Below, in pieces: positions 1 through 52,502 of a DNA stretch of 64,000 bases (its first letter is position 1; the number at the start of each line of letters is the position of its first letter). Source of the stretch: a virus. The notes below the pieces were generated by a model. It was given only the letters and a program-made list of their open reading frames with translations, was not told the origin of the DNA and did not search any database. The position numbers and the translations under genes are program-made. The DNA lies in the IMG/VR virus record IMGVR_UViG_3300035670_000028, positions 64,001-128,000 of that record; one strand, written 5' to 3'.

Positions 1-172
1 GAACCCGGATGATTGGTTCTGTGATGAGTGCCGGCACTGCACGGATCCCGAGTGCAAGAACTGCGGCCTGGATGGGCGCAGGAAGTGGATGAAGCACCTG
101 GGTGATGATACTGCCCTGTGCGATCAGTGCTGGCCGGCCCACCACATGAAGTACGAGGGAGCCCCGCAGTGA
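1..172 (+). CDS. Partial Cys-rich hypothetical protein (5' truncated)
   Basis: Open frame NPDDWFCDECRHCTDPECKNC...CDQCW ending TGA at 170-172, overlapping the next GTG. Confidence 0.6.
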   Translation, partial: NPDDWFCDECRHCTDPECKNCGLDGRRKWMKHLGDDTALCDQCWPAHHMKYEGAPQ

Positions 173-393
173 GGGTGCGCCCGATTCACGCTAATATTCA
201 TCCCGGGTGCCTGTTCACACTGGGAGATTTTCCTCAGCCCTACCTGGCTGTGGATGTAGAGATATTGAATCCCGGTTCTACACTCGGGCCCACACACAGG
301 ATTATTGCTGCTGAGTGCGGAAATAACGGAAAGCCGCGCCAGGTTACTCTGTACTACAGCGATCAGGTGGAGGTGATCGGTGAAGGTGGGTGA
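169..393 (+). CDS. Small hypothetical protein (SH3-like accessory array)
   Basis: ORF 118..393; GTG at 169 overlaps the upstream stop (GTGA) and is the likelier start. Confidence 0.65.
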   Translation: MRVRPIHANIHPGCLFTLGDFPQPYLAVDVEILNPGSTLGPTHRIIAAECGNNGKPRQVTLYYSDQVEVIGEGG

Positions 394-574
394 TCTCGTG
401 GCCTACGTGCTCGATCCGGATCAAATCTACTTGATCGTAGATGGCGAGAGAATGCCTGATGAGAAGGGCGATCCAGATGGATACGCCACTATCTTTCGCC
501 CAGGAGAAATGTTCAGGAGGATGAGGTACACTATTCTCGAAGCCAACTACAGGGTGGTAAGTGAAGGTGGGTGA
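380..574 (+). CDS. MKVGDLV-type small SH3/KOW-like protein
   Basis: N-terminal MKVGDLV; 14-nt overlap with both neighbours. Confidence 0.75.
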   Translation: MKVGDLVAYVLDPDQIYLIVDGERMPDEKGDPDGYATIFRPGEMFRRMRYTILEANYRVVSEGG

Positions 575-755
575 TCTCGTGGTTTGGAATGGCCCGGCAT
601 CCGGCAGTGCCTTCACCTACCTCCTGCTCGAGAGGCTGAGTGATATCCAGGATACCTCCATGGGCCTCATGCGCAGGTGGCGGGCACTATCCTGCATGGG
701 CAGGTTCGAGGTGGTGTTCGAGGAGCACATGAGGGTGTACAGTGAAGGCAGGTGA
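561..755 (+). CDS. MKVGDLV-type small SH3/KOW-like protein
   Basis: MKVGDLVVW; paralog of 742..930 (TYLLL/TYLVL, WRALSC/WQALSC). Confidence 0.75.
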   Translation: MKVGDLVVWNGPASGSAFTYLLLERLSDIQDTSMGLMRRWRALSCMGRFEVVFEEHMRVYSEGR

Positions 756-930
756 TCTCGTGCGGTGGAAGAACACCCAGATCGGCAAGGAATCCACCTA
801 CCTGGTGCTCCGCCCAGATCCTGCGCGCTCGGAGAGCTACCAATCCGAGTGCTGGCAGGCCCTCTCGTGCAGGGGTGCCCTGGTGATCGTGCACGCGGAT
901 GCAATGGAGGTGATCAGTGAAGCCGGGTGA
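742..930 (+). CDS. MKAGDLV-type small SH3/KOW-like protein
   Basis: Paralog of 561..755. Confidence 0.75.
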   Translation: MKAGDLVRWKNTQIGKESTYLVLRPDPARSESYQSECWQALSCRGALVIVHADAMEVISEAG

Positions 931-1084
931 ATTGGCCCGCGTGAGGATCCGCAACTCGATCTTCTACGGCAAGATCGCGCTGGTGGTGGGTGAGCCTAAT
1001 CGGGCCGGTGAAACCGATTACGTGCAGGTGATCTGTGATGGGATCAGGATGATGCCGCTACACTGGCTGGAGCCCGTGGAGTGA
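917..1084 (+). CDS. Small KOW/SH3-like protein (55 aa, not in ORF track)
   Basis: Hand translation MKPGELARVRIRNSIFYGKIALVVGE...LEPVE; same 14-nt overlap junction. Confidence 0.7.
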   Translation: MKPGELARVRIRNSIFYGKIALVVGEPNRAGETDYVQVICDGIRMMPLHWLEPVE

Positions 1085-1302
1085 GCCCACGTGCCGGAGA
1101 GCTCTGGGAGGTAACCGAAACCCAGCGGGTGGCTGTGGGCCAGAAGATCGCCACCTTCCTGATCTCCGGCCCTGCCCTCGTGCTGGAGGTGCACAGGAAC
1201 CATGATGGTGCGGGTGATTACTACACGATCCTGTGGGGCGGGCAGGTGAGGGAGATCATCGATTCTGCGCCCTGGAGGAGTTTCGGCGAGAGGATCTCGT
1301 GA
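1081..1302 (+). CDS. Small SH3-like hypothetical protein
   Basis: PRAGELWEV start; GTGA overlap with upstream gene. Confidence 0.65.
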   Translation: MSPRAGELWEVTETQRVAVGQKIATFLISGPALVLEVHRNHDGAGDYYTILWGGQVREIIDSAPWRSFGERIS

Positions 1303-1329
1303 TCTGCAGAACAGTTTGAGAAGCGCAGC

Positions 1330-1336
1330 ATATTTA
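1330..1336 (+). promoter_or_regulatory. ATATTTA putative late-promoter motif
   Basis: One of about 20 ATA(T/C)TTA-like copies upstream of gene starts. Confidence 0.55.
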
Positions 1337-1361
1337 TACCAAGATTTGAGGAGAGAAACGT

Positions 1362-1667
1362 ATGAGAATCACGCAAGCGCAGCTCAGGAAGATCATCAAG
1401 GAAGAGGCAGCCCGGGCGAAGGGAAAGCGCCTAAACGAGGAGCTCGGGATGGGTGCCGGATCAGCTGAGCTGCAAACTGCTCTGGATGTGATCTGTGATG
1501 GCTGGAAGGCGCAGTTCGATCCAGGCGATCCTAGCATGGATGCTGCTGGCGGCCGGCCCGCTTGGGATGCCCAGTGTGAGGCAGCCTGCGAGGAGCTCGG
1601 CGCAAAGATCGAGGAGCTCGTAATGCAGATCGAGGATGATCTCTACAATGGTGATTACGGGTATTGA
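1362..1667 (+). CDS. Putative virion-internal protein with LRxIIKEE tag
   Basis: MRITQAQLRKIIKEE...LNE; RBS GAGGAG; late motif upstream. Confidence 0.7.
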   Translation: MRITQAQLRKIIKEEAARAKGKRLNEELGMGAGSAELQTALDVICDGWKAQFDPGDPSMDAAGGRPAWDAQCEAACEELGAKIEELVMQIEDDLYNGDYGY

Positions 1668-1669
1668 AC

Positions 1670-1951
1670 ATGCGAATCACTAAATCACAGCTCAGGAAGA
1701 TCATTCGCGAAGAGGTGGAGAAGGTATCCCGCCCAGGTTCTTTTGCCTTCGGTGAATCACCTGATCCTCAGACTATTCATGATGCATTCTTGAGATTGAG
1801 GGATTTTCGCGGTGAGGTTCCAATTCAAAAACTTGCGAATGAACTTGGAGTTCATGTGAACCGAATTGATTTCAACGGTACCGGTTTAAGAGTAGAGAAC
1901 ACTATTGTTACCGAACTTCTCGGTGATACTCCGTATCGAACAGGTAGGTAG
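1670..1951 (+). CDS. Putative virion-internal protein with LRxIIREE tag and HTH-like C-terminus
   Basis: MRITKSQLRKIIREE; IQKLANELGV. Confidence 0.65.
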   Translation: MRITKSQLRKIIREEVEKVSRPGSFAFGESPDPQTIHDAFLRLRDFRGEVPIQKLANELGVHVNRIDFNGTGLRVENTIVTELLGDTPYRTGR

Positions 1952-1988
1952 TGTTCCCCCACAAAAGGGAACCCTGAGTTCCCCTCCG

Positions 1989-2017
1989 TGTAAATCACCC
2001 AGGCTCTGTGTTATGGT
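1989..2017 (+). promoter_or_regulatory. TGTAAA-N17-TATGGT promoter, leaderless
   Basis: ATG 2024 lies 6 nt after the -10 box; no SD. Confidence 0.6.
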
Positions 2018-2023
2018 TAGGCC

Positions 2024-2236
2024 ATGGGCAATCTGAAGCCGGGCGATCTGGTGTGCAGGGTGAGGCTGGGATCTCGTGATAAGCGCGTGGGAAAGCCCCG
2101 CCTGCTCGGGATCCTGCTCGAGGAGCCCAAGTTCCCGCAGTGGGGAAACTACCCGAAGAGCTACACAGTTCTCACACCTGCGGGGATCCAGATTCTCCGC
2201 GATCAGCCCAGAACCCTGATCGAGGGGGTGCCGTGA
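2024..2236 (+). CDS. Small SH3/KOW-like protein
   Basis: LKPGDLV motif. Confidence 0.7.
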   Translation: MGNLKPGDLVCRVRLGSRDKRVGKPRLLGILLEEPKFPQWGNYPKSYTVLTPAGIQILRDQPRTLIEGVP

Positions 2237-2451
2237 GAGAGTTTAAGCCGGGCGATCTCGTGCACGTGAAGAACTACTTCCGGAATGCTGTTCCGGTTGC
2301 AGGTGGCATTCACGCCATTGTGGTGCATGTTGAGAAGCGCCTCACGGGTTCTTTTTATATGCAGAAGAACCCGCTTGTTGAGGTTCTCACCGGGGATGGA
2401 TTCTTCAACTACTACACCGCCAGCAACCTGAAGCTACTGGAGCGCTCATGA
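2233..2451 (+). CDS. Small SH3/KOW-like protein
   Basis: FKPGDLVHV; GTG 2233 overlaps upstream TGA. Confidence 0.7.
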   Translation: MREFKPGDLVHVKNYFRNAVPVAGGIHAIVVHVEKRLTGSFYMQKNPLVEVLTGDGFFNYYTASNLKLLERS

Positions 2452-2636
2452 TCCCCGGAGCCCTAATCAGGTACAGGGTGGAGTACAGGGAAATGCTGCC
2501 ACACCGAGAGAGCGAGATCTACCTTGTGCTCGATCAGATGAGGCTGGGGGGCGAGCAGTACCTGCAGGTTCTCGGCCGCGGTGAGCTCCTGCACTTCAGG
2601 TTCAACTCCCTGTTCATGTACGAGGAGGTGGAGTGA
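2448..2636 (+). CDS. Small hypothetical protein
   Basis: ATGA overlap; IPGALIRY. Confidence 0.65.
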   Translation: MIPGALIRYRVEYREMLPHRESEIYLVLDQMRLGGEQYLQVLGRGELLHFRFNSLFMYEEVE

Positions 2637-2878
2637 TGGGCAAGCACTGGTGGGAGGAGCACGTGCAGCCCGGAATGCTATTCGTGAGCAAGGTGCACCT
2701 GTACGCTGGATCCGCCAAGAACCCCGGAGCACCTGGATCGCTCGTGGAGCCCGGTGCCACTGCATTCGTGGTGGAGGTTGAGCCAATAGCAGGAAATGTA
2801 ACCTATGCGATCTGTGAGGAGCTGGGGAGGATTGATGCCACCTCATTCCTCTCGGTGTTCTCGCGTGTGGAGGAGTGA
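2633..2878 (+). CDS. Small hypothetical protein
   Basis: Overlapping chain of ORFs. Confidence 0.6.
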   Translation: MMGKHWWEEHVQPGMLFVSKVHLYAGSAKNPGAPGSLVEPGATAFVVEVEPIAGNVTYAICEELGRIDATSFLSVFSRVEE

Positions 2879-3078
2879 TGGGAACCAGATCTGAAACACT
2901 GCACATGGGCTGGATCCAGTGCACCCAGTGTGGGTGGGGATCCGAGGTTAGCCGCTCCGAGGTGGAGGCAGGTGATTACACCGATCGCCAGGCCTGCGAT
3001 CACTGCGGGATCGGGCCCTGCAGGATCGATTGGGATTGGCCGGATGGCCCGGGGTGGAGATATGAGGAGAAGAGATGA
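2875..3078 (+). CDS. Zn-ribbon small protein
   Basis: CTQC...CDHC. Confidence 0.6.
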   Translation: MMGTRSETLHMGWIQCTQCGWGSEVSRSEVEAGDYTDRQACDHCGIGPCRIDWDWPDGPGWRYEEKR

Positions 3079-3248
3079 GTGATCAAATCTTTATTCCGGA
3101 TTTCATTATCACATCCGGATCAAGTATCGATATTATGAGAGAGCGTGATGATCTCATCTCATTTCTGCTCGCTGAAGCACAGGCAGAATTCGATCGTGAT
3201 ATTATCGAGGCACTAACAAACTCACACACAGCAGAGGAGAAGAGATGA
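3075..3248 (+). CDS. Small protein (57 aa, not in ORF track) with a gp23-like EFDRDII helix
   Basis: Hand translation MSDQIFIPDF...RDDLISFLLAEAQAEFDRDIIEAL...EEKR; ATGA overlaps at both ends. Confidence 0.6.
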   Translation: MSDQIFIPDFIITSGSSIDIMRERDDLISFLLAEAQAEFDRDIIEALTNSHTAEEKR

Positions 3249-3442
3249 GAGTATCTAGAGAACAGTTCGATATGATCCGTGAAGTGCTAGCACTCCTGCG
3301 AGAGAAGCTACCAGGAGATACTGAGTACAAGTTGGCGCTCAGCCCAATCTGGGCCATCGAGAGGCCACCTCCTGAGCCCCACGAGTTTTCCAGACATATT
3401 TCTATCAATGGCTGTGTGCTGGAGGTGGAGGAGAAGAAATGA
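3245..3442 (+). CDS. Hypothetical protein
   Basis: GAGGAG RBS and ATGA overlap. Confidence 0.6.
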   Translation: MRVSREQFDMIREVLALLREKLPGDTEYKLALSPIWAIERPPPEPHEFSRHISINGCVLEVEEKK

Positions 3443-3726
3443 ACGCTGATCAGATCGCTGGCATGCTCGTGCTTGGAGTTCCCTTCCTGCTCACACTCAT
3501 CTTCCTCATCTGGCTCTACGGGGAGAAGCGCAGGGATAGGCTCCGCGCGCAGAGGAGCGAGGAGCTCAGGCGGGAGGTGCAGGCACTCCACAATAGCGCC
3601 CTCGATCTCAAGGATTACCTCACCAGCAAGCGGGTTTTCTTCATCGATCTAGACAGATGGGATCCTGAGGCAGCGGAGCAGATCATCGAGATCGCGCGCG
3701 AGATACAGAGGAGTGATAAGAAGTGA
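3439..3726 (+). CDS. Membrane-anchored hypothetical protein
   Basis: N-terminal hydrophobic helix followed by a charged coil. Confidence 0.65.
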   Translation: MNADQIAGMLVLGVPFLLTLIFLIWLYGEKRRDRLRAQRSEELRREVQALHNSALDLKDYLTSKRVFFIDLDRWDPEAAEQIIEIAREIQRSDKK

Positions 3727-3929
3727 GAGTGTATGCTACTACAGATGAGGGCAGGAGGTTCCTGCACTCGATTCGCTGTGATGGGCCCGGGTGCGAATCC
3801 GAGATCAAGCCCAATCCTAACATCTCCCAATCCGGTTGGGTGTGGTATGGGCAGGATCACGGCCCAGGCACCACGAGATTAGAATGGGATCACTGCCCAG
3901 ATTGCGATCGGAGAAGAAGTGCCCATTGA
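3723..3929 (+). CDS. Zn-finger small protein
   Basis: CDGPGC...HCPDC. Confidence 0.6.
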   Translation: MRVYATTDEGRRFLHSIRCDGPGCESEIKPNPNISQSGWVWYGQDHGPGTTRLEWDHCPDCDRRRSAH

Positions 3930-4182
3930 GGTGTTAGGCCGCGATCACGAGGGAAGGGTTAGCTCCCAGCCCCCCATCAAGAGTGGCCCGAACCGCGGGC
4001 GGAGGAGGAGCGAGCCCAGGGGTGTTTGGGTGCCGGCAAGTGGCTACGCTTACGAGGAGCGGCAGGATGCCAAGTGTGCCCACTCTGGCTGGATCAAGGC
4101 AGTGCAGGAGCTAGGCCACCGGGTGGGATCCTGGGATTGCGATGGAGTGCGAAACTACTACGTGTTCAGGGAGGCGAGATGA
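3919..4182 (+). CDS. Hypothetical protein
   Basis: Fits the overlapping chain. Confidence 0.55.
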   Translation: MPIEVLGRDHEGRVSSQPPIKSGPNRGRRRSEPRGVWVPASGYAYEERQDAKCAHSGWIKAVQELGHRVGSWDCDGVRNYYVFREAR

Positions 4183-4397
4183 GGGAGAGCTGGAAGCAGA
4201 AGTATGATGAGCTATTCCGTATGTTGGAGAGCTACATCAAGCGGCTTCATACCGCCGAAGAAGAGAATAAGAGGCTCAAGGAGGCGCTGCATAAGATTGC
4301 AGATTGTAATTGCCCTCTTGTAGAAAATGAATATGGATACACCTCAGAACTTTCAGAGTGCCGCATGATCGCGAAGGCTGCGCTGAAGAGTGCATGA
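4179..4397 (+). CDS. Coiled-coil hypothetical protein
   Basis: ATG 4179 with GGAGG RBS; ENKRLKEAL..IA. Confidence 0.6.
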   Translation: MRESWKQKYDELFRMLESYIKRLHTAEEENKRLKEALHKIADCNCPLVENEYGYTSELSECRMIAKAALKSA

Positions 4398-4621
4398 GCC
4401 GGTCCAGCGAGAGGTACGCTGAGATCTGCGAGGGAGATCTAATCGCCCTGCACCCGGTGGAGTGGCACTCAGGAACACCGCCCACCACCATGCTCGTGAT
4501 CTCAGCCCAGCCCTACGAAACACCGGTGCGCCCTCGGCCCACAGATCTCGTGGTGCTCACCTCCCGGGGAGAGATCATGCCCCTGCGCCTGGGTGCATTC
4601 CATCCGTACGTGAGGGTGTGA
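4394..4621 (+). CDS. Small SH3-like protein
   Basis: ICEGDLIAL; ATGA overlap. Confidence 0.6.
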   Translation: MSRSSERYAEICEGDLIALHPVEWHSGTPPTTMLVISAQPYETPVRPRPTDLVVLTSRGEIMPLRLGAFHPYVRV

Positions 4622-4671
4622 GCTGAATACTTATTGGCAGCGCTATTAGAATCCGCGCGTAGGAGTTAAAA

Positions 4672-4944
4672 ATGAAAGTACCCCTTCTAAAGCAATCCGA
4701 TGGGCGGCCCTCCGCCTCCTTCACCATGATGATCATAGCGTTCACCGTGGTTACCCTGTGGCTCACTGTATCGATCGTTGAGCAGGCATGGGGTTTCCAC
4801 ATCCGCGAGTTCTCGGGAGCGGAGGCCATGAGCTACTTCACCCCGATCGCCACCCTCTACTTCTCGAGGCGCTGGACCGATTCGAAGGCGCCGGCAGCCG
4901 GTGGCAGCACTCCCAGCACGCCCCCGCCCTCTCCCGAGGAGTGA
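4672..4944 (+). CDS. Putative holin-like two-TM membrane protein
   Basis: Two hydrophobic segments; AGGAG RBS; ATACTTA at 4627. Confidence 0.5.
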   Translation: MKVPLLKQSDGRPSASFTMMIIAFTVVTLWLTVSIVEQAWGFHIREFSGAEAMSYFTPIATLYFSRRWTDSKAPAAGGSTPSTPPPSPEE

Positions 4945-4957
4945 GCCGCTGATCAGC

Positions 4958-5152
4958 ATGCAGGTGGGTGATCTCGTCAGGTTCACATCCCGGCACCTCG
5001 CCTACGATTACGAAGAGCTGGCAGGCACTGTTGGCGTGCTGGTCAGGCCTATTGAGCTACCGCATGCTGATGGTGTGCTGTACCTGTACTGGGAGGCCCT
5101 GTGGCAGGGCAAGTTCATCGTGCTGCACGAGACTGATCTGGAGTGTGTGTGA
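4958..5152 (+). CDS. MQVGDLV-type small SH3/KOW-like protein
   Basis: MQVGDLVRF...LHETDLECV. Confidence 0.7.
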   Translation: MQVGDLVRFTSRHLAYDYEELAGTVGVLVRPIELPHADGVLYLYWEALWQGKFIVLHETDLECV

Positions 5153-5176
5153 TGAGCCTCCTGTGATCTTCGTCCG

Positions 5177-5205
5177 TGTAAATGATGCTCTGGTCAGAGT
5201 ATAAT
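5177..5205 (+). promoter_or_regulatory. TGTAAA-N17-TATAAT promoter, leaderless, for dnaE
   Basis: ATG 5212 lies 6 nt after TATAAT. Confidence 0.7.
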
Positions 5206-5211
5206 TGGATC

Positions 5212-8200
5212 ATGAGCATCATTGATGTTAGGCCTCCCACTCGATTCACTGGTTTACATGCCCACTCAAGTTTCTCAAATTTTGACGGACTTGCATATCC
5301 AAAGTCACACATTGATTTTATCACCTCCGATGCCCAGGGCGGTGACTCCTGGGCGCTGACTGATCACGGCAACGGATCCGGACTCGCCCACGCTCGTTCA
5401 GCCGCTGTCAAGGTGCAGAAGTCAGGAAAGAAGTACCGCCAGCTGTACGGCGTCGAGTTCTACTTCGTTCCCTCCCTCGAGGAGTGGCAGCAGTCCATGG
5501 ACCGCCACCAGCAGTCCATCAAGGACGCAAAGTCCGCCAAGGAGATGCAGGAGATCGCCGAGGAGCCCACAGTCGTCAAGCCTCCCGACGAGGAGGACGA
5601 GCAGGGTGGCCACGTCGTCGAGAACGAGGAGGAGACGAAGGAGTCCAAGCCCGGCAAGCCCGAGTGGAAGAAGTACTACCACCTCGTCGTCGTGGCCAAG
5701 AATCGGGTCGGCCTCGGAAACCTGTTCACCCTCGTCAAGAAGTCGTTCAAGCACGGCTTCTACCGGTTCCCACGCATCGACTTCAAGATGCTCAAGGAGC
5801 ACGGCGAGGGACTCGTGGTGTCGACAGCGTGCGTCGGTGGCCTTGCATCCGGCCTCATCTACAGCGAGTTTCCCGACAGGAAGTTCTCTGAGCTGAGCCC
5901 ATCGCTGTTCACCGGTGAGGCAGCGGAGGCAGCGGTTCGGTCCATTCGAGGCAGGCTCGACAACATGGTGGACCGCTTCGTCGATGCCGTCGGCCGCGAC
6001 AACTTCTTCCTCGAGCTCCAGTTTAACGACCTCCCCGCTCAGCACCTCACGAACAGGTGCCTGATCGACGCGTCCGTCAGGAACGGCATTCCCCTCGTGG
6101 CGACGGCTGACTCCCACTTCCCCTCGCCTGACAAGTGGCAGGCGCGCGAGCTCTACAAGAAGCTCGGGTGGATTGGTGCCAAGCTCGACAAGACCATGCT
6201 CCCCAAGCTGGAGGACATGAAGACGATGCTGTATCCCAAGAACGCCACCCAGATGTGGGACGAGTTCAAGAAGGGCTACGAGCAGCACGACTTCTACCAC
6301 GGTCACGAGGAGCTCGTCCGCGACGCGATCGAGCGGACCCACGACATCGCCTGGGAGAAGTGCGAGGACACGTGGATCGACGTCTCAGGCAAGCTGCCCA
6401 AGTTCGGCACTCCCGAGAAGACGGCATTCTCAATGCTGTCAGACCTCGTGAAGGAGGGCCTCGTTCGCGAGGGTCTCGCTGACAAGCCTGAGTACGTCGC
6501 CCGCGCGAAGGAGGAGCTGTCTGACATCAAGTACCTCGGACACGAGGCATACTTCCTCGCGATGCAGAAGATCTTTCATCGTGCTGAGACACAGACACTG
6601 CTAGGGCCCGGTCGTGGATCGGGTGCAGGTTCACTGGTAAACTTCCTGCTAGGCATTACTCAGATTGACCCTATTCCGTATGGATTGCTGTGGAGCCGAT
6701 TCTTGGGAAGACATCGCTGTCTTCAAAAGGATACACTTGTTCTATCAGAGTCGGGCACAAAACCTATTAGTCGGCTGAATGTGGGTGAAAAAGTCCTCAC
6801 ATCAGGTGGAACATATGAGCGTGTTATTGACAAAGAAGATGATGTAAAGCACGATATTAACGCTCTCATCAAGACGTCCAAAGACAGTTTTTCATGTTCA
6901 CCGAATCATAGATGGCTTGTTAGACGCGATGGCGAAGTGCAAGAAGTGCTAACAACAGACCTCAGAAAAGGTGACAAGCTGCTGTTCATCAAGCAAAAGT
7001 CTCCGTGTGAGTTCGAAGAGGTCGAAATCGATGAAGTGGTCTTTAGTGATAGGCTCGAAGAGTATGTCGATATTGAGGTTGAGAATGACCACACGTTCTT
7101 TGTTTCGACCGCCGGTGACAACTTTGCGCTGACACACAACACTTCTTGGCCTGACATTGACACTGACGCGGGTGATCGCGACGTCCTCATCGACGCAGCC
7201 CGCGACCTATTCGGCGACGATGCCGTCATTCCGGTGTCCAACTTCAACACGCTCAAGCTCAAGTCCCTCATCAAGGACATCGCCAAGTTCTACGACGTTC
7301 CATTCGACGAGGTCAATGCCATGACTGGTCCACTGCAGGACGAGGTGATGGCCTTCGCCAAGGATGAGAACCAGGAGAAGTCCGTCTTCGTCCTCAAGCA
7401 CGAGGACTGCATGAAGTACTCCGAGGGGTACCGCAACTTCATGGAGAAGTATCCTGATGTTGCGGCGCATGTTGAGACCCTCTTCATGGAGAACCGCTCC
7501 ATCGGTCGACACGCCGGCGGCGTCATTATCGCTCCCGCCGAGGACCTCGAGCGGACAATGCCCATCATCAGTGTCCGCGGTGAGCTGCAGACCCCGTGGA
7601 CCGAGGGCATGAACTTCAGAAACCTTGAGGACAACGGCTTCCTAAAGTTCGACTTCCTCGGCCTCACGCTGCTCAAGGACGTCGAGAACTGCATCGCCCG
7701 AATCCTCAAGCGGCAGGGCAACCCGCGGCCCACGTTCGCGGACGTGAAGGCGTTCTTCGACAAGCACCTTAACTGCAGGTACGTCCTGCAGGACGACCCA
7801 AAGGTCTGGGAGCACGTCTATCACAATGCCCGATTTACAGGCGTATTCCAGTTCACTGCCGCGGGAGCCCGAAAGTTCTGCCTCGACGCGAAGCCGAGCT
7901 CAATCGAGGAGCTGGCGGCACTCACTGCGATCTACCGACCTGGTCCCCTCAAGGCGAACGTCCACAGGAAGTATGTCGAGGCGAAGAATAACGCCTCGCT
8001 CATCAAGTACGAGCACCCCGTGATCGAGAAGGTGCTCGGGCCTTCCTACAACTTCGTCGTTTTCCAGGAGCAGTTCATGACCCTGGCAGTCGAGCTAGCT
8101 GGATTCTCCCCCGGTGAGTCCGATCAGCTTCGAAAGACCCTGGTCAAGAAGTCCCTTGACACGATCGGCAAGAAGGGCGACGAGCGGGAGGCGGCCCGAC

Positions 8201-9279
8201 AGAAGTTCATCAAGGGCGCCAAGGAGCTCCACGGCGTCCCGGAGGACATCACTTCCGCCCTGTGGTCGACGATCGAAGCATTCTCGGTCTACGGCTTCAA
8301 CAAGTCACACGCTGTCGCCTACGCGATTGACTCCTACTACGCGGCGTGGCTTCACACCCACTACGAGACTGACTGGCTGGCCACGATCCTGCAGTCCGAG
8401 AACGGCAACCCCGACGGCCTCAAGAAGGCTATCACTGAGATCAAGGCGTACGGCTACCGGTTCCAGGAGGCAGACATTAACTACTCAGGCGATGTATGGA
8501 ACTACTCCGAGGAGCTGGAGGCCTTCGTGCCGCCCCTCTCCTCCATCAAGGGTGTTGGTGACACTGCCATGCAGGAGATCATGCACAATCGTCCGTACAA
8601 GTCGCTGGACGACCTGCTCTACGATCCCGACGGCGAGTGGCGGCACTCCAAGGTGAACAAGACAGCCCTTCGTGCCCTGTGCATGATCGAGGCACTGGGG
8701 TCACTGCAGGAGCTCAAGGACGGCACGATCCGAAACCACAGGCAGCTGCTGGCAATCCTCAGCGACGACAAGAACTACGAGACCCTGCGCAAGGGCAAGT
8801 GGGGCATGACCAAGTCCCAGGTTAAGAAGGCGCTGAAGGACGGCGGCGATCTCGCCACAATCACGACCCGCCTGATCGAGCAGTACCACGGCCTGCCCGA
8901 CTGGACGCGGACTGAGAAGATCATGAACCACGTGGAGATGACCTCGGACGCACCGCAGGACCTCGTGTTCCCGGCGGGCTTCGTCAAGCGTGTGACCGAG
9001 AAGGACGTGCCCTCAGTCTTCACGATCCCTGGTGGAGGCAAGGGTGTGGGCTGGTTCTGCGCCGCAGAGTCCATCCAGAAGACGACCAAGAAGGGCAAGG
9101 CGTTCCTGCGAATCCGCGCGATCGACAGCGACAACAACTCAGGGTGGATCCGCGTGTGGGGCAAGTTCGAGCAGCTTCCTGAGCCTTATACGCTGTGGAT
9201 CGGTGAGGTGGATAATGATGCGAACTGGGGCATGGCAACCACCTCGTGGAAGCTCAAGCAGATCAAGGCTTTCGAGTGA
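5212..9279 (+). CDS. dnaE: DNA polymerase III alpha subunit (C-family) with intein
   Basis: PHP motifs LHAHS/ALTDHG/GVEFY/TADSH; GRGSGAGS; PDIDTD; HAGGV; LKFDFLGL; YRPGP; YGFNKSHA; C-terminal OB fold. ORF track start is 5182, probable start 5212. Confidence 0.97.
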   Translation: MSIIDVRPPTRFTGLHAHSSFSNFDGLAYPKSHIDFITSDAQGGDSWALTDHGNGSGLAHARSAAVKVQKSGKKYRQLYGVEFYFVPSLEEWQQSMDRHQQSIKDAKSAKEMQEIAEEPTVVKPPDEEDEQGGHVVENEEETKESKPGKPEWKKYYHLVVVAKNRVGLGNLFTLVKKSFKHGFYRFPRIDFKMLKEHGEGLVVSTACVGGLASGLIYSEFPDRKFSELSPSLFTGEAAEAAVRSIRGRLDNMVDRFVDAVGRDNFFLELQFNDLPAQHLTNRCLIDASVRNGIPLVATADSHFPSPDKWQARELYKKLGWIGAKLDKTMLPKLEDMKTMLYPKNATQMWDEFKKGYEQHDFYHGHEELVRDAIERTHDIAWEKCEDTWIDVSGKLPKFGTPEKTAFSMLSDLVKEGLVREGLADKPEYVARAKEELSDIKYLGHEAYFLAMQKIFHRAETQTLLGPGRGSGAGSLVNFLLGITQIDPIPYGLLWSRFLGRHRCLQKDTLVLSESGTKPISRLNVGEKVLTSGGTYERVIDKEDDVKHDINALIKTSKDSFSCSPNHRWLVRRDGEVQEVLTTDLRKGDKLLFIKQKSPCEFEEVEIDEVVFSDRLEEYVDIEVENDHTFFVSTAGDNFALTHNTSWPDIDTDAGDRDVLIDAARDLFGDDAVIPVSNFNTLKLKSLIKDIAKFYDVPFDEVNAMTGPLQDEVMAFAKDENQEKSVFVLKHEDCMKYSEGYRNFMEKYPDVAAHVETLFMENRSIGRHAGGVIIAPAEDLERTMPIISVRGELQTPWTEGMNFRNLEDNGFLKFDFLGLTLLKDVENCIARILKRQGNPRPTFADVKAFFDKHLNCRYVLQDDPKVWEHVYHNARFTGVFQFTAAGARKFCLDAKPSSIEELAALTAIYRPGPLKANVHRKYVEAKNNASLIKYEHPVIEKVLGPSYNFVVFQEQFMTLAVELAGFSPGESDQLRKTLVKKSLDTIGKKGDEREAARQKFIKGAKELHGVPEDITSALWSTIEAFSVYGFNKSHAVAYAIDSYYAAWLHTHYETDWLATILQSENGNPDGLKKAITEIKAYGYRFQEADINYSGDVWNYSEELEAFVPPLSSIKGVGDTAMQEIMHNRPYKSLDDLLYDPDGEWRHSKVNKTALRALCMIEALGSLQELKDGTIRNHRQLLAILSDDKNYETLRKGKWGMTKSQVKKALKDGGDLATITTRLIEQYHGLPDWTRTEKIMNHVEMTSDAPQDLVFPAGFVKRVTEKDVPSVFTIPGGGKGVGWFCAAESIQKTTKKGKAFLRIRAIDSDNNSGWIRVWGKFEQLPEPYTLWIGEVDNDANWGMATTSWKLKQIKAFE
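6718..7140 (+). mobile_element. Mini-intein (141 aa) in dnaE, no homing endonuclease
   Basis: N-terminal CLQKDTLV, block B CSPNHRW, block F YVDIEVENDHTF, C-terminal THN followed by Thr+1; removal restores RFLGRHR-TSWPDIDTD. Confidence 0.93.
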
Positions 9280-9294
9280 TGATAAAGAGTTTCT

Positions 9295-9546
9295 ATGAAG
9301 TGCTATATCACCAAGTATGATGTGTCCGCTAAGCACATGTGCAAGAATCCCTACGACATATGGGTGCCCCGGCTTGTACAACACGAGTTGGCACCTGTAG
9401 GAATGGGATCTGCTGTGTACACCCCTCTCCCTGTGGGCACTATAGCGCTGCTGATCGATACGAAGAACATGCCAGGCAAGTGCATATACCTCTCAGGCGG
9501 TTTCACCGTGGAGCTGCATGATTCAGATTTGGAGCCCCTATCATGA
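9295..9546 (+). CDS. Hypothetical protein
   Basis: Ends LHDSDLEPL like other SH3-type ORFs. Confidence 0.6.
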   Translation: MKCYITKYDVSAKHMCKNPYDIWVPRLVQHELAPVGMGSAVYTPLPVGTIALLIDTKNMPGKCIYLSGGFTVELHDSDLEPLS

Positions 9547-9872
9547 GAAAGAAGGATCCTGTGGATCTGTGCGCAGGTGATCTCGCCTGGATCTGGTCCG
9601 CAACCGGCCCCCTCGCTGCCCTGGTTGTTGATATCGATCCCAGCAAGGAGGCACAAACATACTACCTCCTCTCCTGCCCGGACCGAGAGCCTGAGTGGCT
9701 CCCTGAATCGATGGTGTTCTCCTCACCGGAGGCCGTAACCCACCCCTGGCAGGCCCGGCAGGTATACCCATCCCTGATCGCCAATGAGATCGTATCCGTG
9801 CAGCCAATGCCCCAGGGCTGCCTCCCATTCTACCTCGATGAGGTCGAGCGCAGGGTTAAGGAAGATGAGTGA
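9543..9872 (+). CDS. SH3-like protein fused to a major-capsid (gp23 Gol-region-like) peptide
   Basis: LCAGDLAW N-terminus; RQVYPSLIANEIVSVQPM..G..FYLD. Confidence 0.65.
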   Translation: MRKKDPVDLCAGDLAWIWSATGPLAALVVDIDPSKEAQTYYLLSCPDREPEWLPESMVFSSPEAVTHPWQARQVYPSLIANEIVSVQPMPQGCLPFYLDEVERRVKEDE

Positions 9873-10177
9873 TGCTTAAAGTAGGTAAGCTCTATTCTTG
9901 CTCTAGATACTTTCTCCTGATCTATCCAGATAAGAAAACTGCCGCCTCCGCCGCTCTCCGATCCCGAGCCGCCGCCCCAGCCTCAGTCGTCGCAGGTTCC
10001 GCCTCTTATTGGAGTAAGCAGTTTGATAAGCCTGTAAGCTATTGCGAACCGGAAACTCCTCTTCTTGTTCTTGCAGTAGAGGAAAAATATGTTGAGGTTC
10101 TGGCAGGAGATCAAAAAGGTTGGATTATCAATAAGGACCGGTTGAATATTAAGGAGATTACCGATGATGCCGCTTGA
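9869..10177 (+). CDS. SH3-like protein with Ala-rich variable insert (paralog 1)
   Basis: LKVGKLYSCS; highly similar to 10164..10466. Confidence 0.75.
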   Translation: MMLKVGKLYSCSRYFLLIYPDKKTAASAALRSRAAAPASVVAGSASYWSKQFDKPVSYCEPETPLLVLAVEEKYVEVLAGDQKGWIINKDRLNIKEITDDAA

Positions 10178-10466
10178 AGTAGGTAAACTCTATTCTTGCT
10201 CTAAATACTTCCTTATGCTTTATCCAGATAGGGAAACCGCCACCCACGCCGCCGCCGCCCACGCCGCCGCCCACGACGCCGAGCGCCATGCCGCTTATTG
10301 GACAAAGAAACTCCAAAAGCCTGTAAGTTTTTGCAATCCCGAAACTCCTCTCCTTGTTCTTGCAGTAGAGGAAAAATATGTTGAGGTTCTTGCGGGAGAT
10401 AAAGTTGGCTGGGCTATTTGTCAGGATTGGTTAGAACTTAAGGAGATTGTTCATGAAGCGGCTTAA
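10164..10466 (+). CDS. SH3-like protein with Ala-rich variable insert (paralog 2)
   Basis: PETPLLVLAVEEKYVEVLAGD is identical in both copies. Confidence 0.75.
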   Translation: MMPLEVGKLYSCSKYFLMLYPDRETATHAAAAHAAAHDAERHAAYWTKKLQKPVSFCNPETPLLVLAVEEKYVEVLAGDKVGWAICQDWLELKEIVHEAA

Positions 10467-10635
10467 TCTATTTGGCTTCACCCTGTTCCGCGAGGAGCGG
10501 GGCGTGATCAGCCCAGGCCCGTGTTGGGTTTGCTTCTACGATTGCTACAGCTACATGCACGCGGATGAGAGCCTGCCCGGGCTCATTTGGAGCCTGATCG
10601 CGGAGTTCAGGGATGACCGGCACCTGGTTGGATGA
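10453..10635 (+). CDS. Hypothetical protein
   Basis: AGGAG RBS then ATG 10453. Confidence 0.55.
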   Translation: MKRLNLFGFTLFREERGVISPGPCWVCFYDCYSYMHADESLPGLIWSLIAEFRDDRHLVG

Positions 10636-10915
10636 TATGTGGCTGAACGATCCAGATCAGCTGCGCCCGGGCCGGCTCTACGAGTGGCAGAAGAGAACCG
10701 TTCAGTGCTGGGTGCCTTGGTTCGATGAGATCGATAGGGGGAAGAACACCCACACCCAGAATGCAGTTGATGGGCCCCCGAATGGATCCGCACTAGTGTA
10801 CATAGGTAAGGGCCGCGAGGGCAGGCAGATAACTGGCTACTCGTTCCTCGTTCCAAACCGAGGCGTGCTAACTGTGTTCAACAGTGATGTTGTTTATGGG
10901 CTGAGAGAAATTTAA
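10613..10915 (+). CDS. Hypothetical protein
   Basis: LRPGRLY motif; start uncertain. Confidence 0.55.
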   Translation: MTGTWLDDMWLNDPDQLRPGRLYEWQKRTVQCWVPWFDEIDRGKNTHTQNAVDGPPNGSALVYIGKGREGRQITGYSFLVPNRGVLTVFNSDVVYGLREI

Positions 10916-10922
10916 TAAGGAG

Positions 10923-11375
10923 ATGAAAATGACACCTGAACAGTTCGTGTATTGGCTCCAGGGTTTCCTGGAGGTGAGCGGGGCGAGTGAGATGAATGAG
11001 CAGCAGTTGAGGATCGTGCGCGATCACCTCGAGCTCGTGCTGAGCAAGAGAACTCCGGCATATGTGCAGCACGCCCAACCTGCCCCTATTGCCAAGTGGG
11101 AAACGGTTTCCGGCTTTCAGGGCACATATCCCACCGGCCCCAAGTGCGGAACGTGCGGTGTGGTGTGCTCGGATGAGGGTGGCACCTGCAGGAAGTGCCG
11201 CTCGGCTTCGAAGAGCCGCCTGGTGCACTGTGATGCCTGCGGGGAGCAGCGCCTCGAGGGGGAGCTCACAGGTATCAGCACTGAGAACCTGGCCGGTGTG
11301 GTGATCTGCAGCGTGTGTAAGAGTAAGTCGAAGAAGCTGCCCATCCTCGATGTTCCTCTGCACCTGACCTGCTGA
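10923..11375 (+). CDS. Zn-ribbon protein with phage-type TPEQFxYWLQG N-terminus
   Basis: Four CxxC pairs; AAGGAG RBS. Confidence 0.65.
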   Translation: MKMTPEQFVYWLQGFLEVSGASEMNEQQLRIVRDHLELVLSKRTPAYVQHAQPAPIAKWETVSGFQGTYPTGPKCGTCGVVCSDEGGTCRKCRSASKSRLVHCDACGEQRLEGELTGISTENLAGVVICSVCKSKSKKLPILDVPLHLTC

Positions 11376-11382
11376 GGCGCAT

Positions 11383-12668: not shown

Positions 12669-13460
12669 ATGACTATCAACCTAGAGAATCGCGACTGCCT
12701 CGAGTATCTGGCCTCGCTGCCTGATGAGTCCATTGACATCGCACTACTTGATCCGCCCTACTTCATTGGCCACGACTCATGGGACAAGCAGTGGCCCACT
12801 GAGGAGAAGTACATGAAGTGGTGCGAGGCGTGGACTCGAGAGTCCGTTCGAGTCCTGCGCAGGAATCGCCCCATCTGCGTCTGGGGCACGATGAAGACTG
12901 ACACCTTCCTGCGGTACAAGCTCAACGTGCTCAACAAGGTCCCAGGCATCTACCCGCAGAATGAGATCGTGTGGTCCTACAACTGGGGCGGCAGGTCCAA
13001 GGGCAACTTCGCCCGAAAGCACGAGTACATGTGGGTGTACAGCAAGGGAGAGCTTCACTTCAACGCCGACGATGTCCGCATCGAGAGGAAGCAGAAGGTG
13101 AACATCAGGACGGGTCAGCCGTTTGCCCAGGGCACAATTCCCACCTGCGTGTGGGAGAAGAACAACCACACGACCTCTAAGGAGTACTGCGCGTGGCACA
13201 CGGCGCAGAAGCCCATCTCCCTGCTCGAGCGCATCATCAGGGCGTACACCAATCCGGGTGAGACAGTGATGGACTGCTTCAGTGGCGCGGGCTCCACAAT
13301 GATCGCCGCCCACAATGTGGGCCGCAACTTCACAGGCACCGAGCTGTACAGGGACTACTACGAGCAGTCGAAGGATCGATTTAAGACTCTCACAGGCTCA
13401 TCCGTGCTTGACTCAAAGGACTCAGCGCCCGGGGCGCAATATTTAACGGAGGAGACATGA
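12669..13460 (+). CDS. DNA methyltransferase, N6-A/N4-C beta class
   Basis: DPPY motif IV, HxxQKP, DCFSGAGST motif I. Confidence 0.92.
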   Translation: MTINLENRDCLEYLASLPDESIDIALLDPPYFIGHDSWDKQWPTEEKYMKWCEAWTRESVRVLRRNRPICVWGTMKTDTFLRYKLNVLNKVPGIYPQNEIVWSYNWGGRSKGNFARKHEYMWVYSKGELHFNADDVRIERKQKVNIRTGQPFAQGTIPTCVWEKNNHTTSKEYCAWHTAQKPISLLERIIRAYTNPGETVMDCFSGAGSTMIAAHNVGRNFTGTELYRDYYEQSKDRFKTLTGSSVLDSKDSAPGAQYLTEET

Positions 13461-48968: not shown

Positions 48969-49325
48969 GTGTACTATCGGGCACGTGATCGGGCCATGAA
49001 GAATGGGCTGCCCTTTCACGTTGCAGCGGTCCTGAGACGGGCGGGTCAGATCGTCCGAATCGGCGTCAATTCCTTCAAGACGCATCCAAAGTTCATGCGC
49101 ACTTACCCAGACGGCAGTAACGCAGCGCACATGCACGCCGAGATGGATGTCCTGCGTTTTGCGGAGCCTGGCGACGAGCTCGAGGTGATGCGATTCCGAA
49201 AGTGCGGTGAGTTTGGGATGGCAAAGCCCTGCAAGTACTGCATGCAGCACATCCTCGAATCTGGTGTGCGCAAGGTGAAGTACACAGATGAGTCTGGTGT
49301 CTGGAAGACTATTAAGATCAAGTGA
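48969..49325 (+). CDS. Zn-dependent cytidine-deaminase-superfamily protein
   Basis: HAE and KPCKYC motifs. Confidence 0.8.
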   Translation: MYYRARDRAMKNGLPFHVAAVLRRAGQIVRIGVNSFKTHPKFMRTYPDGSNAAHMHAEMDVLRFAEPGDELEVMRFRKCGEFGMAKPCKYCMQHILESGVRKVKYTDESGVWKTIKIK

Positions 49326-49343
49326 TGCTTAGAATGGAGACTT

Positions 49344-49556
49344 ATGAATAATCTAGAAAAAGCAGACGAAGCGAGAGTGGGTGACATCTGCAACTACTGG
49401 AACAAGACAGTGATTGTCCACAAGCTGGGACCTGAGCCTGGATGGGCTGAGGTTCTCAAGATCAAGAATCCCAACATTCCAAGCCAAGTTTCAGGCGTGC
49501 CATTTTCAGTTCGTCTCACACAGCTGAATATTGTGAAGCGGGCACGGACGTCTTAA
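49344..49556 (+). CDS. Small SH3-like protein
   Basis: ARVGDI. Confidence 0.55.
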   Translation: MNNLEKADEARVGDICNYWNKTVIVHKLGPEPGWAEVLKIKNPNIPSQVSGVPFSVRLTQLNIVKRARTS

Positions 49557-49557
49557 T

Positions 49558-49836
49558 GTGGCCATCAAGTCTGGAGACGCTGTCCAACTCAATCCTACGT
49601 CGATTTCATCACACTTTTTTGACCTACGACGCTTCTTTCCTGACGATGATGATTGGAATTTTATCAGCTCACTTCCAAGCACTGTGGGACTTGTTGTTAG
49701 AGTTCGGACAAGGGAGATGAGCTTTCCCACAATTGCTAGAGGGGTTGAGGAGGTAAGAGTTATTCAGACAGCAGAGGTTGTGTGGCCCAGTGGAAGGGTG
49801 AACAACTGCCCAGTTGAATTTTTGAATAGGGTCTGA
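49558..49836 (+). CDS. Small SH3-like protein
   Basis: IKSGDAV. Confidence 0.55.
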   Translation: MAIKSGDAVQLNPTSISSHFFDLRRFFPDDDDWNFISSLPSTVGLVVRVRTREMSFPTIARGVEEVRVIQTAEVVWPSGRVNNCPVEFLNRV

Positions 49837-49842
49837 TATACT

Positions 49843-52499: not shown

Positions 52500-52502
52500 C
52501 AC

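What the first reader, a model, noticed from the sequence alone, without database searches (positions are those of the whole stretch)
1..4860. Near-complete avoidance of the trinucleotide GAC/GTC in a defined genome sector
Seen: a hand scan of 1-4860 finds only about 4 GAC or GTC (1771, 3393, 3652, 4402), against well over 100 expected at random. Asp is almost always GAT, Val is GTG/GTT, and GAT/ATC/GATC are abundant. Inside dnaE (from ~5340) and across the rest of the window GAC/GTC occur several times per 60-nt line. A second accessory block (9543-11380) is partly depleted, about 12 in 1.85 kb. The effect is symmetric across strands and independent of frame. It also covers late-type genes (1362, 1670, 4672), so it follows position rather than gene class. 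Inference, three options: (a) a first-injected or terminal segment purged of a 3-bp target of a host defence or modification system, analogous to the restriction-site-poor T5 first-step-transfer DNA; (b) GAC-context cytosine modification or deamination (GAC>GAT, GTC>ATC) acting regionally; (c) import from a relative that avoids GAC genome-wide. A 3-nt motif purged this cleanly is shorter than typical restriction sites and may point to an undescribed DNA-targeting system.
Basis: partly seen in the sequence, partly recalled or inferred. Interest (0 to 1): 0.86.

Follow-up and report, generated by a model that had tools for sequence, protein, structure and literature searches.

The report
GAC/GTC-free blocks in a jumbo phage
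Several blocks of small genes in this large freshwater phage have been almost completely cleared of the three-letter DNA words GAC and GTC by natural selection, which points to an unknown enzyme that recognises a target of only three base pairs.

Summary
Window 1-4860 holds 4 GAC/GTC (GWC) sites, against about 156-183 expected. After amino-acid and codon correction, O/E is 0.10/0.01/0.17 in the three frames, against about 1.0 elsewhere.

It is not one sector. The 147-kb contig is a 44%-complete jumbo-phage fragment with five GWC-poor blocks, all arrays of small co-oriented genes plus one structural-gene block.

The purge works through synonymous, codon-junction and serine-family choices, so it is selection on the motif and not C-deamination. 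It was kept through about 400 substitutions among metagenomic relatives. It recurs in the homologous gene array of a complete, distant 298-kb relative, as one 13-kb sector that is also poor in GpC. Two other relatives have similar arrays purged of CATG instead.

An independent contig bridges the block/dnaE border, so this is not a chimeric join.

Best reading: restriction-type site avoidance confined to accessory gene arrays, as in the T5 first-step-transfer region or the Murciavirus leading region, but with a 3-bp target. The agent, and the reason only these blocks are purged, are unknown.

Other first readers of this scan noted the same tracts in overlapping windows of this genome. I found no record of it on other DNA.

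The parts
1..4875 (.). Window part of GWC-poor block B (genome 61,788-68,875; 5 GAC/GTC sites in 7.1 kb).
   Evidence: sites only at 1771, 3393, 3652 and 4402, and the next is at 4875. O/E is 0.0-0.24 for every gene.
118..5152 (+). Array of about 24 tightly packed small genes (55-101 aa), mostly with overlapping stop and start codons. None has a Pfam family above its cut-off.
   Evidence: Relative to related phages this array is an insertion of about 7 kb upstream of dnaE.
1771..4404 (.). Span that holds the four residual GWC sites (1771 GAC, 3393 GAC, 3652 GAC, 4402 GTC).
   Evidence: All four could have been avoided synonymously, so they look like tolerated or recent sites.
1330..1336 (+). 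ATAYTTA promoter-like motif 32 nt upstream of the gene at 1362. It is the same motif found upstream of backbone genes.
   Evidence: 34 copies in the contig and 3 inside block B, so the block uses the phage's own regulatory signals.
4627..4633 (+). ATAYTTA promoter-like motif 45 nt upstream of the gene at 4672.
5182..9279 (+). dnaE (1365 aa) with normal GWC density. It separates blocks B and C. Its last 150 nt or so (from 9130) are already GWC-free.
9130..11327 (.). GWC-poor block C with partial depletion (per-gene O/E 0.08-0.5). It is a second array of small genes. Two genes (9872-10177 and an uncalled neighbour) are paralogues of a block E gene.
12669..13460 (+). Beta-class N6-adenine DNA methyltransferase (PF01555; RsrI, MboIIA and CcrM relatives), 1.3 kb downstream of block C. 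Its specificity is unknown. It is listed as a candidate only, not shown to be connected.
   Evidence: It is absent from the complete relative G001, which has the same purge.

Best explanation
The blocks are hyperplastic arrays of small accessory genes whose DNA is under continuing selection against the self-complementary trinucleotide pair GAC/GTC. This is restriction-site avoidance, but confined to part of the genome and aimed at a target of only 3 bp.

Shown:
- The purge acts on the motif in every frame.
- It uses every synonymous route available and even shapes dipeptide content.
- It has been maintained through hundreds of substitutions.
- It is shared by homologous arrays in distant relatives.
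- Analogous arrays in other relatives are purged of a different palindrome.

Inferred: a DNA-recognising enzyme with a symmetric 3-bp specificity cuts or marks GWC. It is most likely a host nuclease or modification-dependent defence. Only these arrays are exposed to it. That would follow if they are the part of the genome that enters, or is used, before a phage protection takes effect, as in the T5 first-step-transfer DNA and the leading region of T7-like Murciavirus phages.

Recombination and cassette shuffling then scatter purged DNA among normal DNA. This would give the five blocks seen here.
For: Motif-level selection:
- Gly GGA/GGT occurs 0/43 times before a C-starting codon, against 114/229 elsewhere.
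- G-ending codons occur 2/273 times before AC/TC, against 39% elsewhere.
- Ser after a G-ending codon is TCN 1 : AGY 35.
- Asp is GAT 175 : GAC 2.
- The backbone shows none of these biases.
- Met-Thr plus Trp-Thr dipeptides number 1 against 6.4 expected.
- Frame-wise O/E is 0.10/0.01/0.17.

Maintenance: among GWC-free homologous tracts (ours, L120, L123, L129; 81-94% identity) 0-2 GWC arose where 5-12 were expected per comparison.

Conservation in relatives:
- The complete relative G001 (298 kb, GC 43%, DnaE 42% identical) has one sector, 56.6-69.9 kb, with ratio 0.09 and the same junction avoidance.
- That sector carries homologues of block B and C genes, all with 0 sites.
- G002 has a similar segment.
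- Block GC follows the resident genome: 0.57 against 0.54 here, and 0.434 against 0.429 in G001.

Other palindromes in other relatives:
- G008 has 3 CATG in 23 kb, where the dinucleotide shuffles imply about 75.
- G007 has 2 CATG in 10 kb.
- Both sectors are small-gene arrays.

All purged sets (GWC, GpC, CATG) are self-complementary, as expected for recognition of double-stranded DNA.

Precedent: only motifs in the leading injected region matter for Type I restriction of Murciavirus phages, and the authors cite T5 likewise (PMC12455610).
Against: - In this contig the purged DNA lies in five blocks separated by normal DNA. dnaE, with 191 sites, sits between blocks B and C, which a single leading segment does not explain.
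- Block A contains a virion structural gene, and block B carries the same promoter-like motif as backbone genes. The blocks are therefore not obviously one early class.
- No enzyme with a 3-bp GWC specificity is known to me, and none was identified here. The host is unknown.
- Physical genome ends are unknown for every genome examined. G001's 123-nt end overlap is only an assembly circle.
- An IS200/IS605 element with normal GWC density sits inside G001's sector.
Confidence: 0.42

Rival explanations
1. Self-inflicted constraint. The phage's own DNA chemistry targets GWC, for example a context-specific base hypermodification or methylation, or a virion-delivered nuclease used against host DNA. 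The arrays must stay free of the mark or cut so that they can be read by unmodified host machinery.
For: - A nucleotide-modification cluster (HhH-GPD glycosylase, Fpg/Nei, dUTPase/MazG-like, NT5C-like, divergent ThyX, nucleoside deoxyribosyltransferase, NDP-sugar epimerase) lies directly upstream of block B.
- An N6-adenine methyltransferase lies just after block C.
- Each GWC site carries exactly one T and one A, so it could be a context for a T or A modification.
- This reading explains a region-limited, DNA-level, palindromic signal without needing an order of injection.
Against: - G001 has the same purge but no PF01555, PF00145 or PF02086 methyltransferase.
- Nothing links the modification cluster to GWC.
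- Late-type genes lie inside the blocks.
Confidence: 0.15
2. Legacy of import. The blocks were copied by recombination from related phages that avoid GWC throughout their genomes, and no pressure acts on them in the present genome.
For: - A recombination junction lies inside a gene in L120. It is 62-66% identical and GWC-rich on the left, and 94% identical and GWC-free on the right.
- Cassette indels occur at gene borders in two other studies.
- Block E-type and block B-type genes are contiguous in another contig.
- CCC/GGG is 1.8x enriched in the blocks.
- Block edges fall inside flanking genes.
Against: - No genome-wide avoider was found among 25 dnaE loci, 38 further loci or 10 long relatives.
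- The one complete relative is purged in one sector only.
- Block GC matches each resident genome.
- Homologous gene families are purged in both a 57%-GC and a 43%-GC genome at 50-65% protein identity. That requires long maintenance in both lineages.
Confidence: 0.15
3. RNA-level selection. The transcripts of these genes must survive an endoribonuclease that cuts at GAC and GUC, in the manner of mRNA interferases with 3-nt targets. The nuclease could be a host abortive-infection toxin or a phage shut-off RNase.
For: - Three-nucleotide specificity is typical of such RNases (own knowledge: MazF cuts ACA, MqsR cuts GCU).
- The signal is gene- and array-limited, independent of frame, and covers intergenic spacers.
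- All block genes are co-oriented.
- It tolerates interruption by normal DNA (dnaE, the IS element).
- A cyclic-phosphate-processing receiver domain protein is encoded in block D.
Against: - Every purged set seen (GAC+GTC, GpC, CATG) is self-complementary. That is expected for double-stranded DNA recognition and is a coincidence for RNA.
- No strand asymmetry is seen in G001's GpC-containing trimers.
- The 5' untranslated region of block E's first gene contains GWC sites.
Confidence: 0.12
4. Mutational decay. GWC is hypermutable in these regions, for example through C-methylation followed by deamination or through a context-specific deaminase, so the motif is lost without selection on the motif itself.
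For: - GAT/ATC (+52%) and AAC/GTT (+22%) are the C>T products, and they account for much of the lost GWC.
- A T:G-type glycosylase family (HhH-GPD) is encoded nearby.
Against: - The deepest depletion (O/E 0.01) is at junctions where C>T changes the amino acid.
- There the motif is removed at the middle base or by multi-base serine switches.
- A regional mutator would not follow recombination breakpoints.
Confidence: 0.05

Closest known systems
Restriction-motif avoidance confined to the leading (first-injected) region: T5 first-step-transfer DNA, and Murciavirus/T7-like phages (PMC12455610)
   Same: Selection on recognition motifs acts on a sub-genomic segment that is highly variable and packed with small genes, while the same motif is frequent and harmless elsewhere in the genome.
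   Different: - The motif here is 3 bp (plus GpC in relatives), against 6-13 bp there.
- Hundreds of sites have been removed here, not one or a few.
- There are at least five blocks here, not one terminal segment.
- These are jumbo phages with unknown ends.
- No host system and no order of injection is known.
Genome-wide avoidance of Type II restriction sites in virulent phages (Rusinov et al. 2018, PMC6286503)
   Same: Near-complete elimination of a short palindromic site by synonymous change.
   Different: That avoidance covers the whole genome and concerns known 4-6-bp sites. Here the backbone has 4,900 sites at normal frequency and the target is shorter than any bacterial restriction site I know of.
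Very short recognition sites of chlorovirus DNA enzymes (own knowledge, not tested here: M.CviPI GpC, CviJI RGCY, Nt.CviPII CCD)
   Same: They show that DNA enzymes with 2-3-bp specificity exist. The GpC co-depletion in G001 and G002 recalls a GpC-specific enzyme.
   Different: Those are enzymes of eukaryotic algal viruses. No homologue was sought or found here, and no GWC enzyme is known.
Motif-free mRNAs that resist mRNA interferases (own knowledge: ACA-less genes and MazF)
   Same: A 3-nt motif is purged from particular genes in all frames.
   Different: That signal is specific to the RNA strand. Here every purged set is self-complementary.

Membership tests
Leading-region restriction-site avoidance (T5 FST / Murciavirus type) | The motif is depleted well beyond codon and amino-acid expectation in a defined sub-genomic segment and is normal elsewhere. 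| tested here: met
Leading-region restriction-site avoidance (T5 FST / Murciavirus type) | The depleted segment is the first DNA to enter the cell (fixed ends, stepwise entry). | tested here: inconclusive
   - The contig is a 44%-complete fragment.
- There are five blocks.
- Depth is not doubled over block B.
- G001 assembles as a circle through a 123-nt overlap.
- Physical ends are unknown.
Leading-region restriction-site avoidance (T5 FST / Murciavirus type) | The motif is the recognition site of a defence system of the host. | not testable with these tools
   The host is unknown (metagenome). I know of no described system with GWC specificity.
Leading-region restriction-site avoidance (T5 FST / Murciavirus type) | The segment encodes early functions that neutralise the defence for the rest of the genome. 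| tested here: inconclusive
   About 24 small proteins have no Pfam family above cut-off. No expression data were available.
Genome-wide restriction-site avoidance | Depletion over the whole genome. | tested here: not met
   Backbone O/E is 1.0. The contig holds 4,935 sites.
Methylation- or deamination-driven motif decay (CpG-like) | The loss is explained by C>T (G>A) changes alone. | tested here: not met
   Junction avoidance works through middle-base changes and serine-family switching.
Horizontally acquired compositional island | The composition differs from the resident genome and matches a donor. | tested here: inconclusive
   - CCC/GGG is 1.8x enriched and a junction is seen in L120.
- GC tracks the resident genome.
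- The blocks carry the phage's own promoter-like motif.
- No donor was found.
RNase-resistant (motif-free) transcripts | The depletion is specific to the transcribed strand. | not testable with these tools
   GAC and GTC are reverse complements, so the strands cannot be told apart. The self-complementarity of GWC, GpC and CATG argues against this family.

The most novel reading that the evidence does not exclude
An undescribed DNA-targeting system recognises the 3-bp palindromic set GWC (and GpC in relatives' settings). It could be a host defence or a phage weapon. It acts on a specific, exposed part of jumbo-phage genomes. In that case sector-limited 'motif deserts', with different motifs in different phages, would be a general signature of jumbo phages that reports their hosts' defences.
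Probability: 0.3. Interest if true: 0.9.

Novelty: new variant of a known kind. Interest (0 to 1): 0.74.

Why it matters
Avoidance of restriction sites is well known. Avoidance restricted to a leading genome segment has only recently been shown by experiment, and there for one or a few long sites.

Here a 3-bp word, which would be expected about every 27 bases, has been removed 20- to 100-fold from defined blocks. It has been kept out over long evolutionary time in several lineages. Sister phages show the same architecture with another word.

If the cause is a nuclease or modification enzyme, it has a shorter specificity than any bacterial defence enzyme described. The deserts would then give a purely computational read-out of which part of a jumbo-phage genome is exposed, and of what the host aims at.

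It also shows how strongly nucleotide-level selection can shape codon-pair use and even dipeptide content in phage accessory genes.

Tried and rejected
- **Near-identical phage records.** Megablast of the block and of dnaE against the phage collection found nothing.
- **Close relatives of the 849-aa block A protein.**
  - The IMG/VR homologues (40-72% identical) have normal GWC.
  - The 97%-identical contig has no DNA on hand.
  - One protein was not on record.
  - L130 and L134 are GWC-rich, and L133 is about 3-fold poor for its GC content.
- **Block B 152-aa protein.** No relatives in viral contigs.
- **Primase-site idea** (own knowledge: the T7 primase recognises GTC). No DnaG or T7-type zinc-ribbon primase domain was found in this fragment, so it could not be tested.
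- **Longer motif hidden behind GWC.** No 4-6-mer is an outlier once the 3-mers are accounted for. Residual sites lean towards GGWCC, but GGWCC itself is depleted in block B: 1 in 4.9 kb, against 1.8 per kb in the backbone.
- **Residual sites as unavoidable sites.** Only 3 of 31 are unavoidable.
- **Variants in runs X4 and X5.** They create no GWC, but the test is weak (P = 0.05-0.12).
- **Literature searches** for a GWC or trinucleotide purge in phages found nothing relevant. One search call failed on a term that was too short.
- **Earlier notes of this scan.** None describes this on other DNA.


Full report
**1. The observation**

Window 1-4860 contains exactly four GAC or GTC trinucleotides, at 1771, 3393, 3652 and 4402. 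Expected numbers are:
- 166 from base composition;
- 156 from a first-order Markov model;
- 183 at the density of the rest of the genome.

dnaE (5340-9279) has 191 sites.

GAC and GTC are reverse complements, so I write the pair as GWC. Among the 32 strand-symmetric trinucleotides only GWC is depleted. Its island/backbone ratio is 0.06 and the next lowest is 0.60.

I called genes with a simple self-trained ORF scorer. I then resampled each gene's codons synonymously with backbone codon usage. O/E in the islands is:
- 0.10 for in-frame GAC/GTC;
- 0.01 for xGA|C and xGT|C;
- 0.17 for xxG|AC and xxG|TC.

The rest of the genome gives 1.00, 0.97 and 1.04. No 4-6-mer is an outlier once lower orders are accounted for, so the high GATC count is a by-product of the GAT/ATC excess. 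In 2.1 Mb from 112 other phage loci, the longest GWC-free stretch scaled by site density is 14.5, against 71 here.

**2. It is not one sector**

The window is bases 64,001-128,000 of a 147,186-nt viral contig. IMG/VR classes the contig as linear and 44% complete, so it is a fragment of a jumbo phage. Sequencing runs that hold it come from subsurface and freshwater or lake metagenomes.

The contig has five GWC-poor blocks:

| Block | Genome coordinates | Notes |
|---|---|---|
| A | 48,971-53,284 | Partial depletion, complete in 50,828-52,090 |
| B | 61,788-68,875 | 5 sites in 7.1 kb; the finding is its 3' two-thirds |
| C | 73,130-75,327 | Partial depletion |
| D | 138,397-139,928 | No site |
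| E | 145,244 to contig end | 2 sites |

Blocks B to E are arrays of small co-oriented genes. Twenty-two of them were scanned and none has a Pfam family above its cut-off. The exception is a cyclic-phosphate-processing receiver domain protein in block D. Block A holds an 849-aa virion structural protein (phrog_1645) and four further genes.

Block edges are sharp. They fall near, and sometimes inside, the ends of flanking genes.

A promoter-like motif, ATAYTTA, stands 12-100 nt upstream of 34 genes in the contig. Three of these lie in block B. The blocks therefore use the phage's own signals and are not one obvious expression class.

**3. It is not an artefact**

A 4,202-nt contig from a different sample covers window 3215-7416 without a single difference. 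It bridges the border between block B and dnaE. Its depth is the same on both sides, so block B is not a collapsed terminal repeat.

Two other freshwater studies carry diverged variants of block B. These include a clean cassette deletion from 2633 to 4395, at gene borders.

**4. How the motif is avoided**

Strong blocks compared with other contexts in the same blocks:

| Feature | In the risky context | Elsewhere |
|---|---|---|
| Gly as GGA/GGT, before a C-starting codon | 0/43 | 114/229 |
| G-ending codon, before AC or TC | 2/273 | 39% |
| Ser after a G-ending codon, TCN : AGY | 1 : 35 | 116 : 34 (after non-G) |
| Asp, GAT : GAC | 175 : 2 | not context-split |

The backbone shows none of these biases. 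The dipeptides that force a GWC (Met-Thr, Trp-Thr) occur once where 6.4 are expected.

The deepest depletion is at junctions where C>T would change the protein. There the motif is removed at its middle base or by a multi-base serine switch. This rules out regional C-deamination as the cause. It points to selection on the oligonucleotide itself.

**5. The purge is maintained and inherited**

A family of about 95-aa proteins has members in blocks C and E and more than 140 metagenomic homologues. Contigs L120, L123 and L129 (GC 54-59%) carry tracts homologous to block E that are also GWC-free.

Comparing these tracts with ours and with each other (81-94% identity, about 400 substitutions in all), 0-2 GWC have arisen where 5-12 would be expected per comparison. 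The motif is therefore being kept out, and the blocks are not simply a relic.

L120 shows a recombination junction inside a gene. To the left it is 62-66% identical to ours and rich in GWC. To the right it is 94% identical and GWC-free. An ENA contig joins block E-type genes directly to block B-type genes. The arrays are therefore shuffled by recombination.

Low-GC relatives with the same gene family (L116-L119, L121, L124, L125) have normal GWC density. The exception is one gene copy that is 95% identical to ours.

**6. Relatives**

Block B is an insertion. In three relatives the epimerase-cluster homologue lies 0.5-1.5 kb from dnaE, against 8.5 kb here. None of 25 dnaE-centred loci shows a desert.

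G001 is a 297,894-nt record that CheckV rates 100% complete. Its GC is 43% and its DnaE is 42% identical to ours.
- It has a single GWC-poor sector at 56.6-69.9 kb, with 27 sites in 11.6 kb and a ratio of 0.09.
- The sector is an array of small minus-strand genes that ends at a convergent terminator.
- The only interruption is an IS200/IS605 element with normal GWC density.
- It shows the same codon-junction avoidance.
- It contains homologues of block B and C genes at 33-65% protein identity, each with no GWC.
- The sector's GC (0.434) equals that of its genome (0.429). Our blocks (0.57) likewise lie near our backbone (0.54).
- In G001 the dinucleotide GpC is also halved in all three codon phases (O/E 0.42-0.46), and alanine use drops.
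- Its 123-nt end overlap is only an assembly circle, so its physical ends are unknown.

G002 (DnaE 67% identical) has a small-gene segment at its contig start with GWC O/E 0.35 and GpC O/E 0.42.

A complete relative that is purged in one sector only, with local GC matching the resident genome, argues against import from a genome-wide avoider.

**7. Other motifs in other relatives**

A scan of eleven genomes for deserts of any 2-4-mer, followed by pattern counts, found two more cases:
- G008 has 3 CATG in about 23 kb, where the dinucleotide shuffles imply about 75.
- G007 has 2 CATG in about 10 kb.

Both sectors are arrays of small co-oriented genes, and GWC is normal there. The architecture 'small-gene array purged of a short palindrome' therefore recurs with different motifs. 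All purged sets (GWC, GpC, CATG) are self-complementary. That fits recognition of double-stranded DNA better than recognition of RNA.

**8. Interpretation**

The best-supported reading is restriction-type site avoidance confined to accessory gene arrays. The nearest precedent is the leading, first-injected region:
- In Murciavirus phages only motifs in that region determine sensitivity to a Type I system, although the motif occurs elsewhere in the genome.
- The authors of that study cite T5 and T7 likewise (PMC12455610).
- Genome-wide avoidance of Type II sites is common in virulent phages (PMC6286503).

What is new here:
- a 3-bp target, plus GpC in relatives;
- the scale of the purge (hundreds of sites);
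- its persistence over long divergence;
- its occurrence in jumbo phages;
- in this contig, its distribution over five blocks.

That last point is the main weakness of a simple leading-segment model. dnaE, with 191 sites, lies between blocks B and C, and block A is structural.

Rival readings that remain open:
- a constraint imposed by the phage's own DNA chemistry. A nucleotide-modification cluster lies directly upstream of block B, and an N6-adenine methyltransferase lies after block C. The methyltransferase is absent from G001;
- legacy import from genome-wide avoiders;
- RNA-level selection against a GAC/GUC-cutting RNase.

Mutational decay is disfavoured (section 4). The agent that recognises GWC was not identified.

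**9. Limits**

- The gene calls are my own simple ones.
- The host, the physical genome ends and the expression timing are unknown.
- The CATG deserts and the G002 segment were examined only briefly, because the script budget ended.
- Statements about known enzyme specificities (chlorovirus enzymes, mRNA interferases, T7 primase) rest on my own knowledge, not on tests here.

Noticed in passing
L262:1236 to L263:4276 (G008, about 81.2-104.3 kb); L242:4830-14898 (G007): These are arrays of small co-oriented genes almost free of CATG. G008 has 3 sites in about 23 kb and G007 has 2 in about 10 kb, against roughly 3.4 per kb expected. CCWGG occurs once in 20 kb of L242, against 13 expected. GWC is normal there.
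   Followed up: partly
G001 56.6-69.9 kb (L176/L177); G002 1-4100 (L190): In these relatives the GWC-poor sector is also depleted about 2.3-fold in the dinucleotide GpC. In G001 this holds in all codon phases and alanine use is reduced. In the window's own genome GpC is normal.
   Followed up: partly
L177:3245-4832 (G001 63,245-64,832); L116:4520-5773; L117:4413-5552: IS200/IS605 elements (Y1 transposase and/or TnpB) are inserted on the opposite strand inside the small-gene arrays of several relatives. In G001 the element has normal GWC density.
   Followed up: partly
window 2633-4395: Contigs from two independent freshwater studies skip exactly 2633 to 4395, which are gene borders. This is a cassette presence/absence polymorphism within block B.
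   Followed up: no
L001:6973-14036 (genome 53,973-61,036), just before the window: A cluster of nucleotide and base-metabolism genes lies here: HhH-GPD glycosylase, Fpg/Nei, dUTPase/MazG-like, NT5C-like, divergent ThyX, DUF7487, nucleoside 2-deoxyribosyltransferase and NDP-sugar epimerase. It suggests that the phage DNA carries a modified pyrimidine.
   Followed up: partly
window 12669-13460: A beta-class N6-adenine DNA methyltransferase (PF01555), nearest to the solved M.RsrI, M.MboIIA and CcrM. Homologues occur in G002 and G010 but not in G001.
   Followed up: partly
whole contig; in the window for example 1330, 4627, 13439, 14870: The motif ATAYTTA lies 12-100 nt upstream of 34 genes on the + strand, inside and outside the blocks. 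It is probably a phage-specific promoter element.
   Followed up: partly
window 10001-10400 (around 10237-10281): There is a very high summed contig depth (633 in X2) with loose ends made of GCC/CCG-rich repeats. A short G+C-rich repeat here attracts reads from other organisms.
   Followed up: no
L002:2448-2933 (genome 138,448-138,933, block D): The first gene of block D encodes a cyclic-phosphate-processing receiver domain (PF20274, E = 2e-20). About 80 phage loci carry homologues, and all of them have normal GWC density.
   Followed up: partly
blocks A and C, for example window 9595, 9680, 10135: Residual GWC sites in the weakly purged blocks are often in the palindrome GGWCC (10 of 37 sites, where backbone flank frequencies predict about 5%). 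In block C GGWCC is barely depleted, but in block B it is (1 site).
   Followed up: partly
L133 (3.2 kb, GC 66%): This relative carries the block A structural gene and has about 3-fold fewer GWC (19.5 per kb) than two similar high-GC contigs (59-62 per kb). Partial depletion therefore also exists in another lineage.
   Followed up: no
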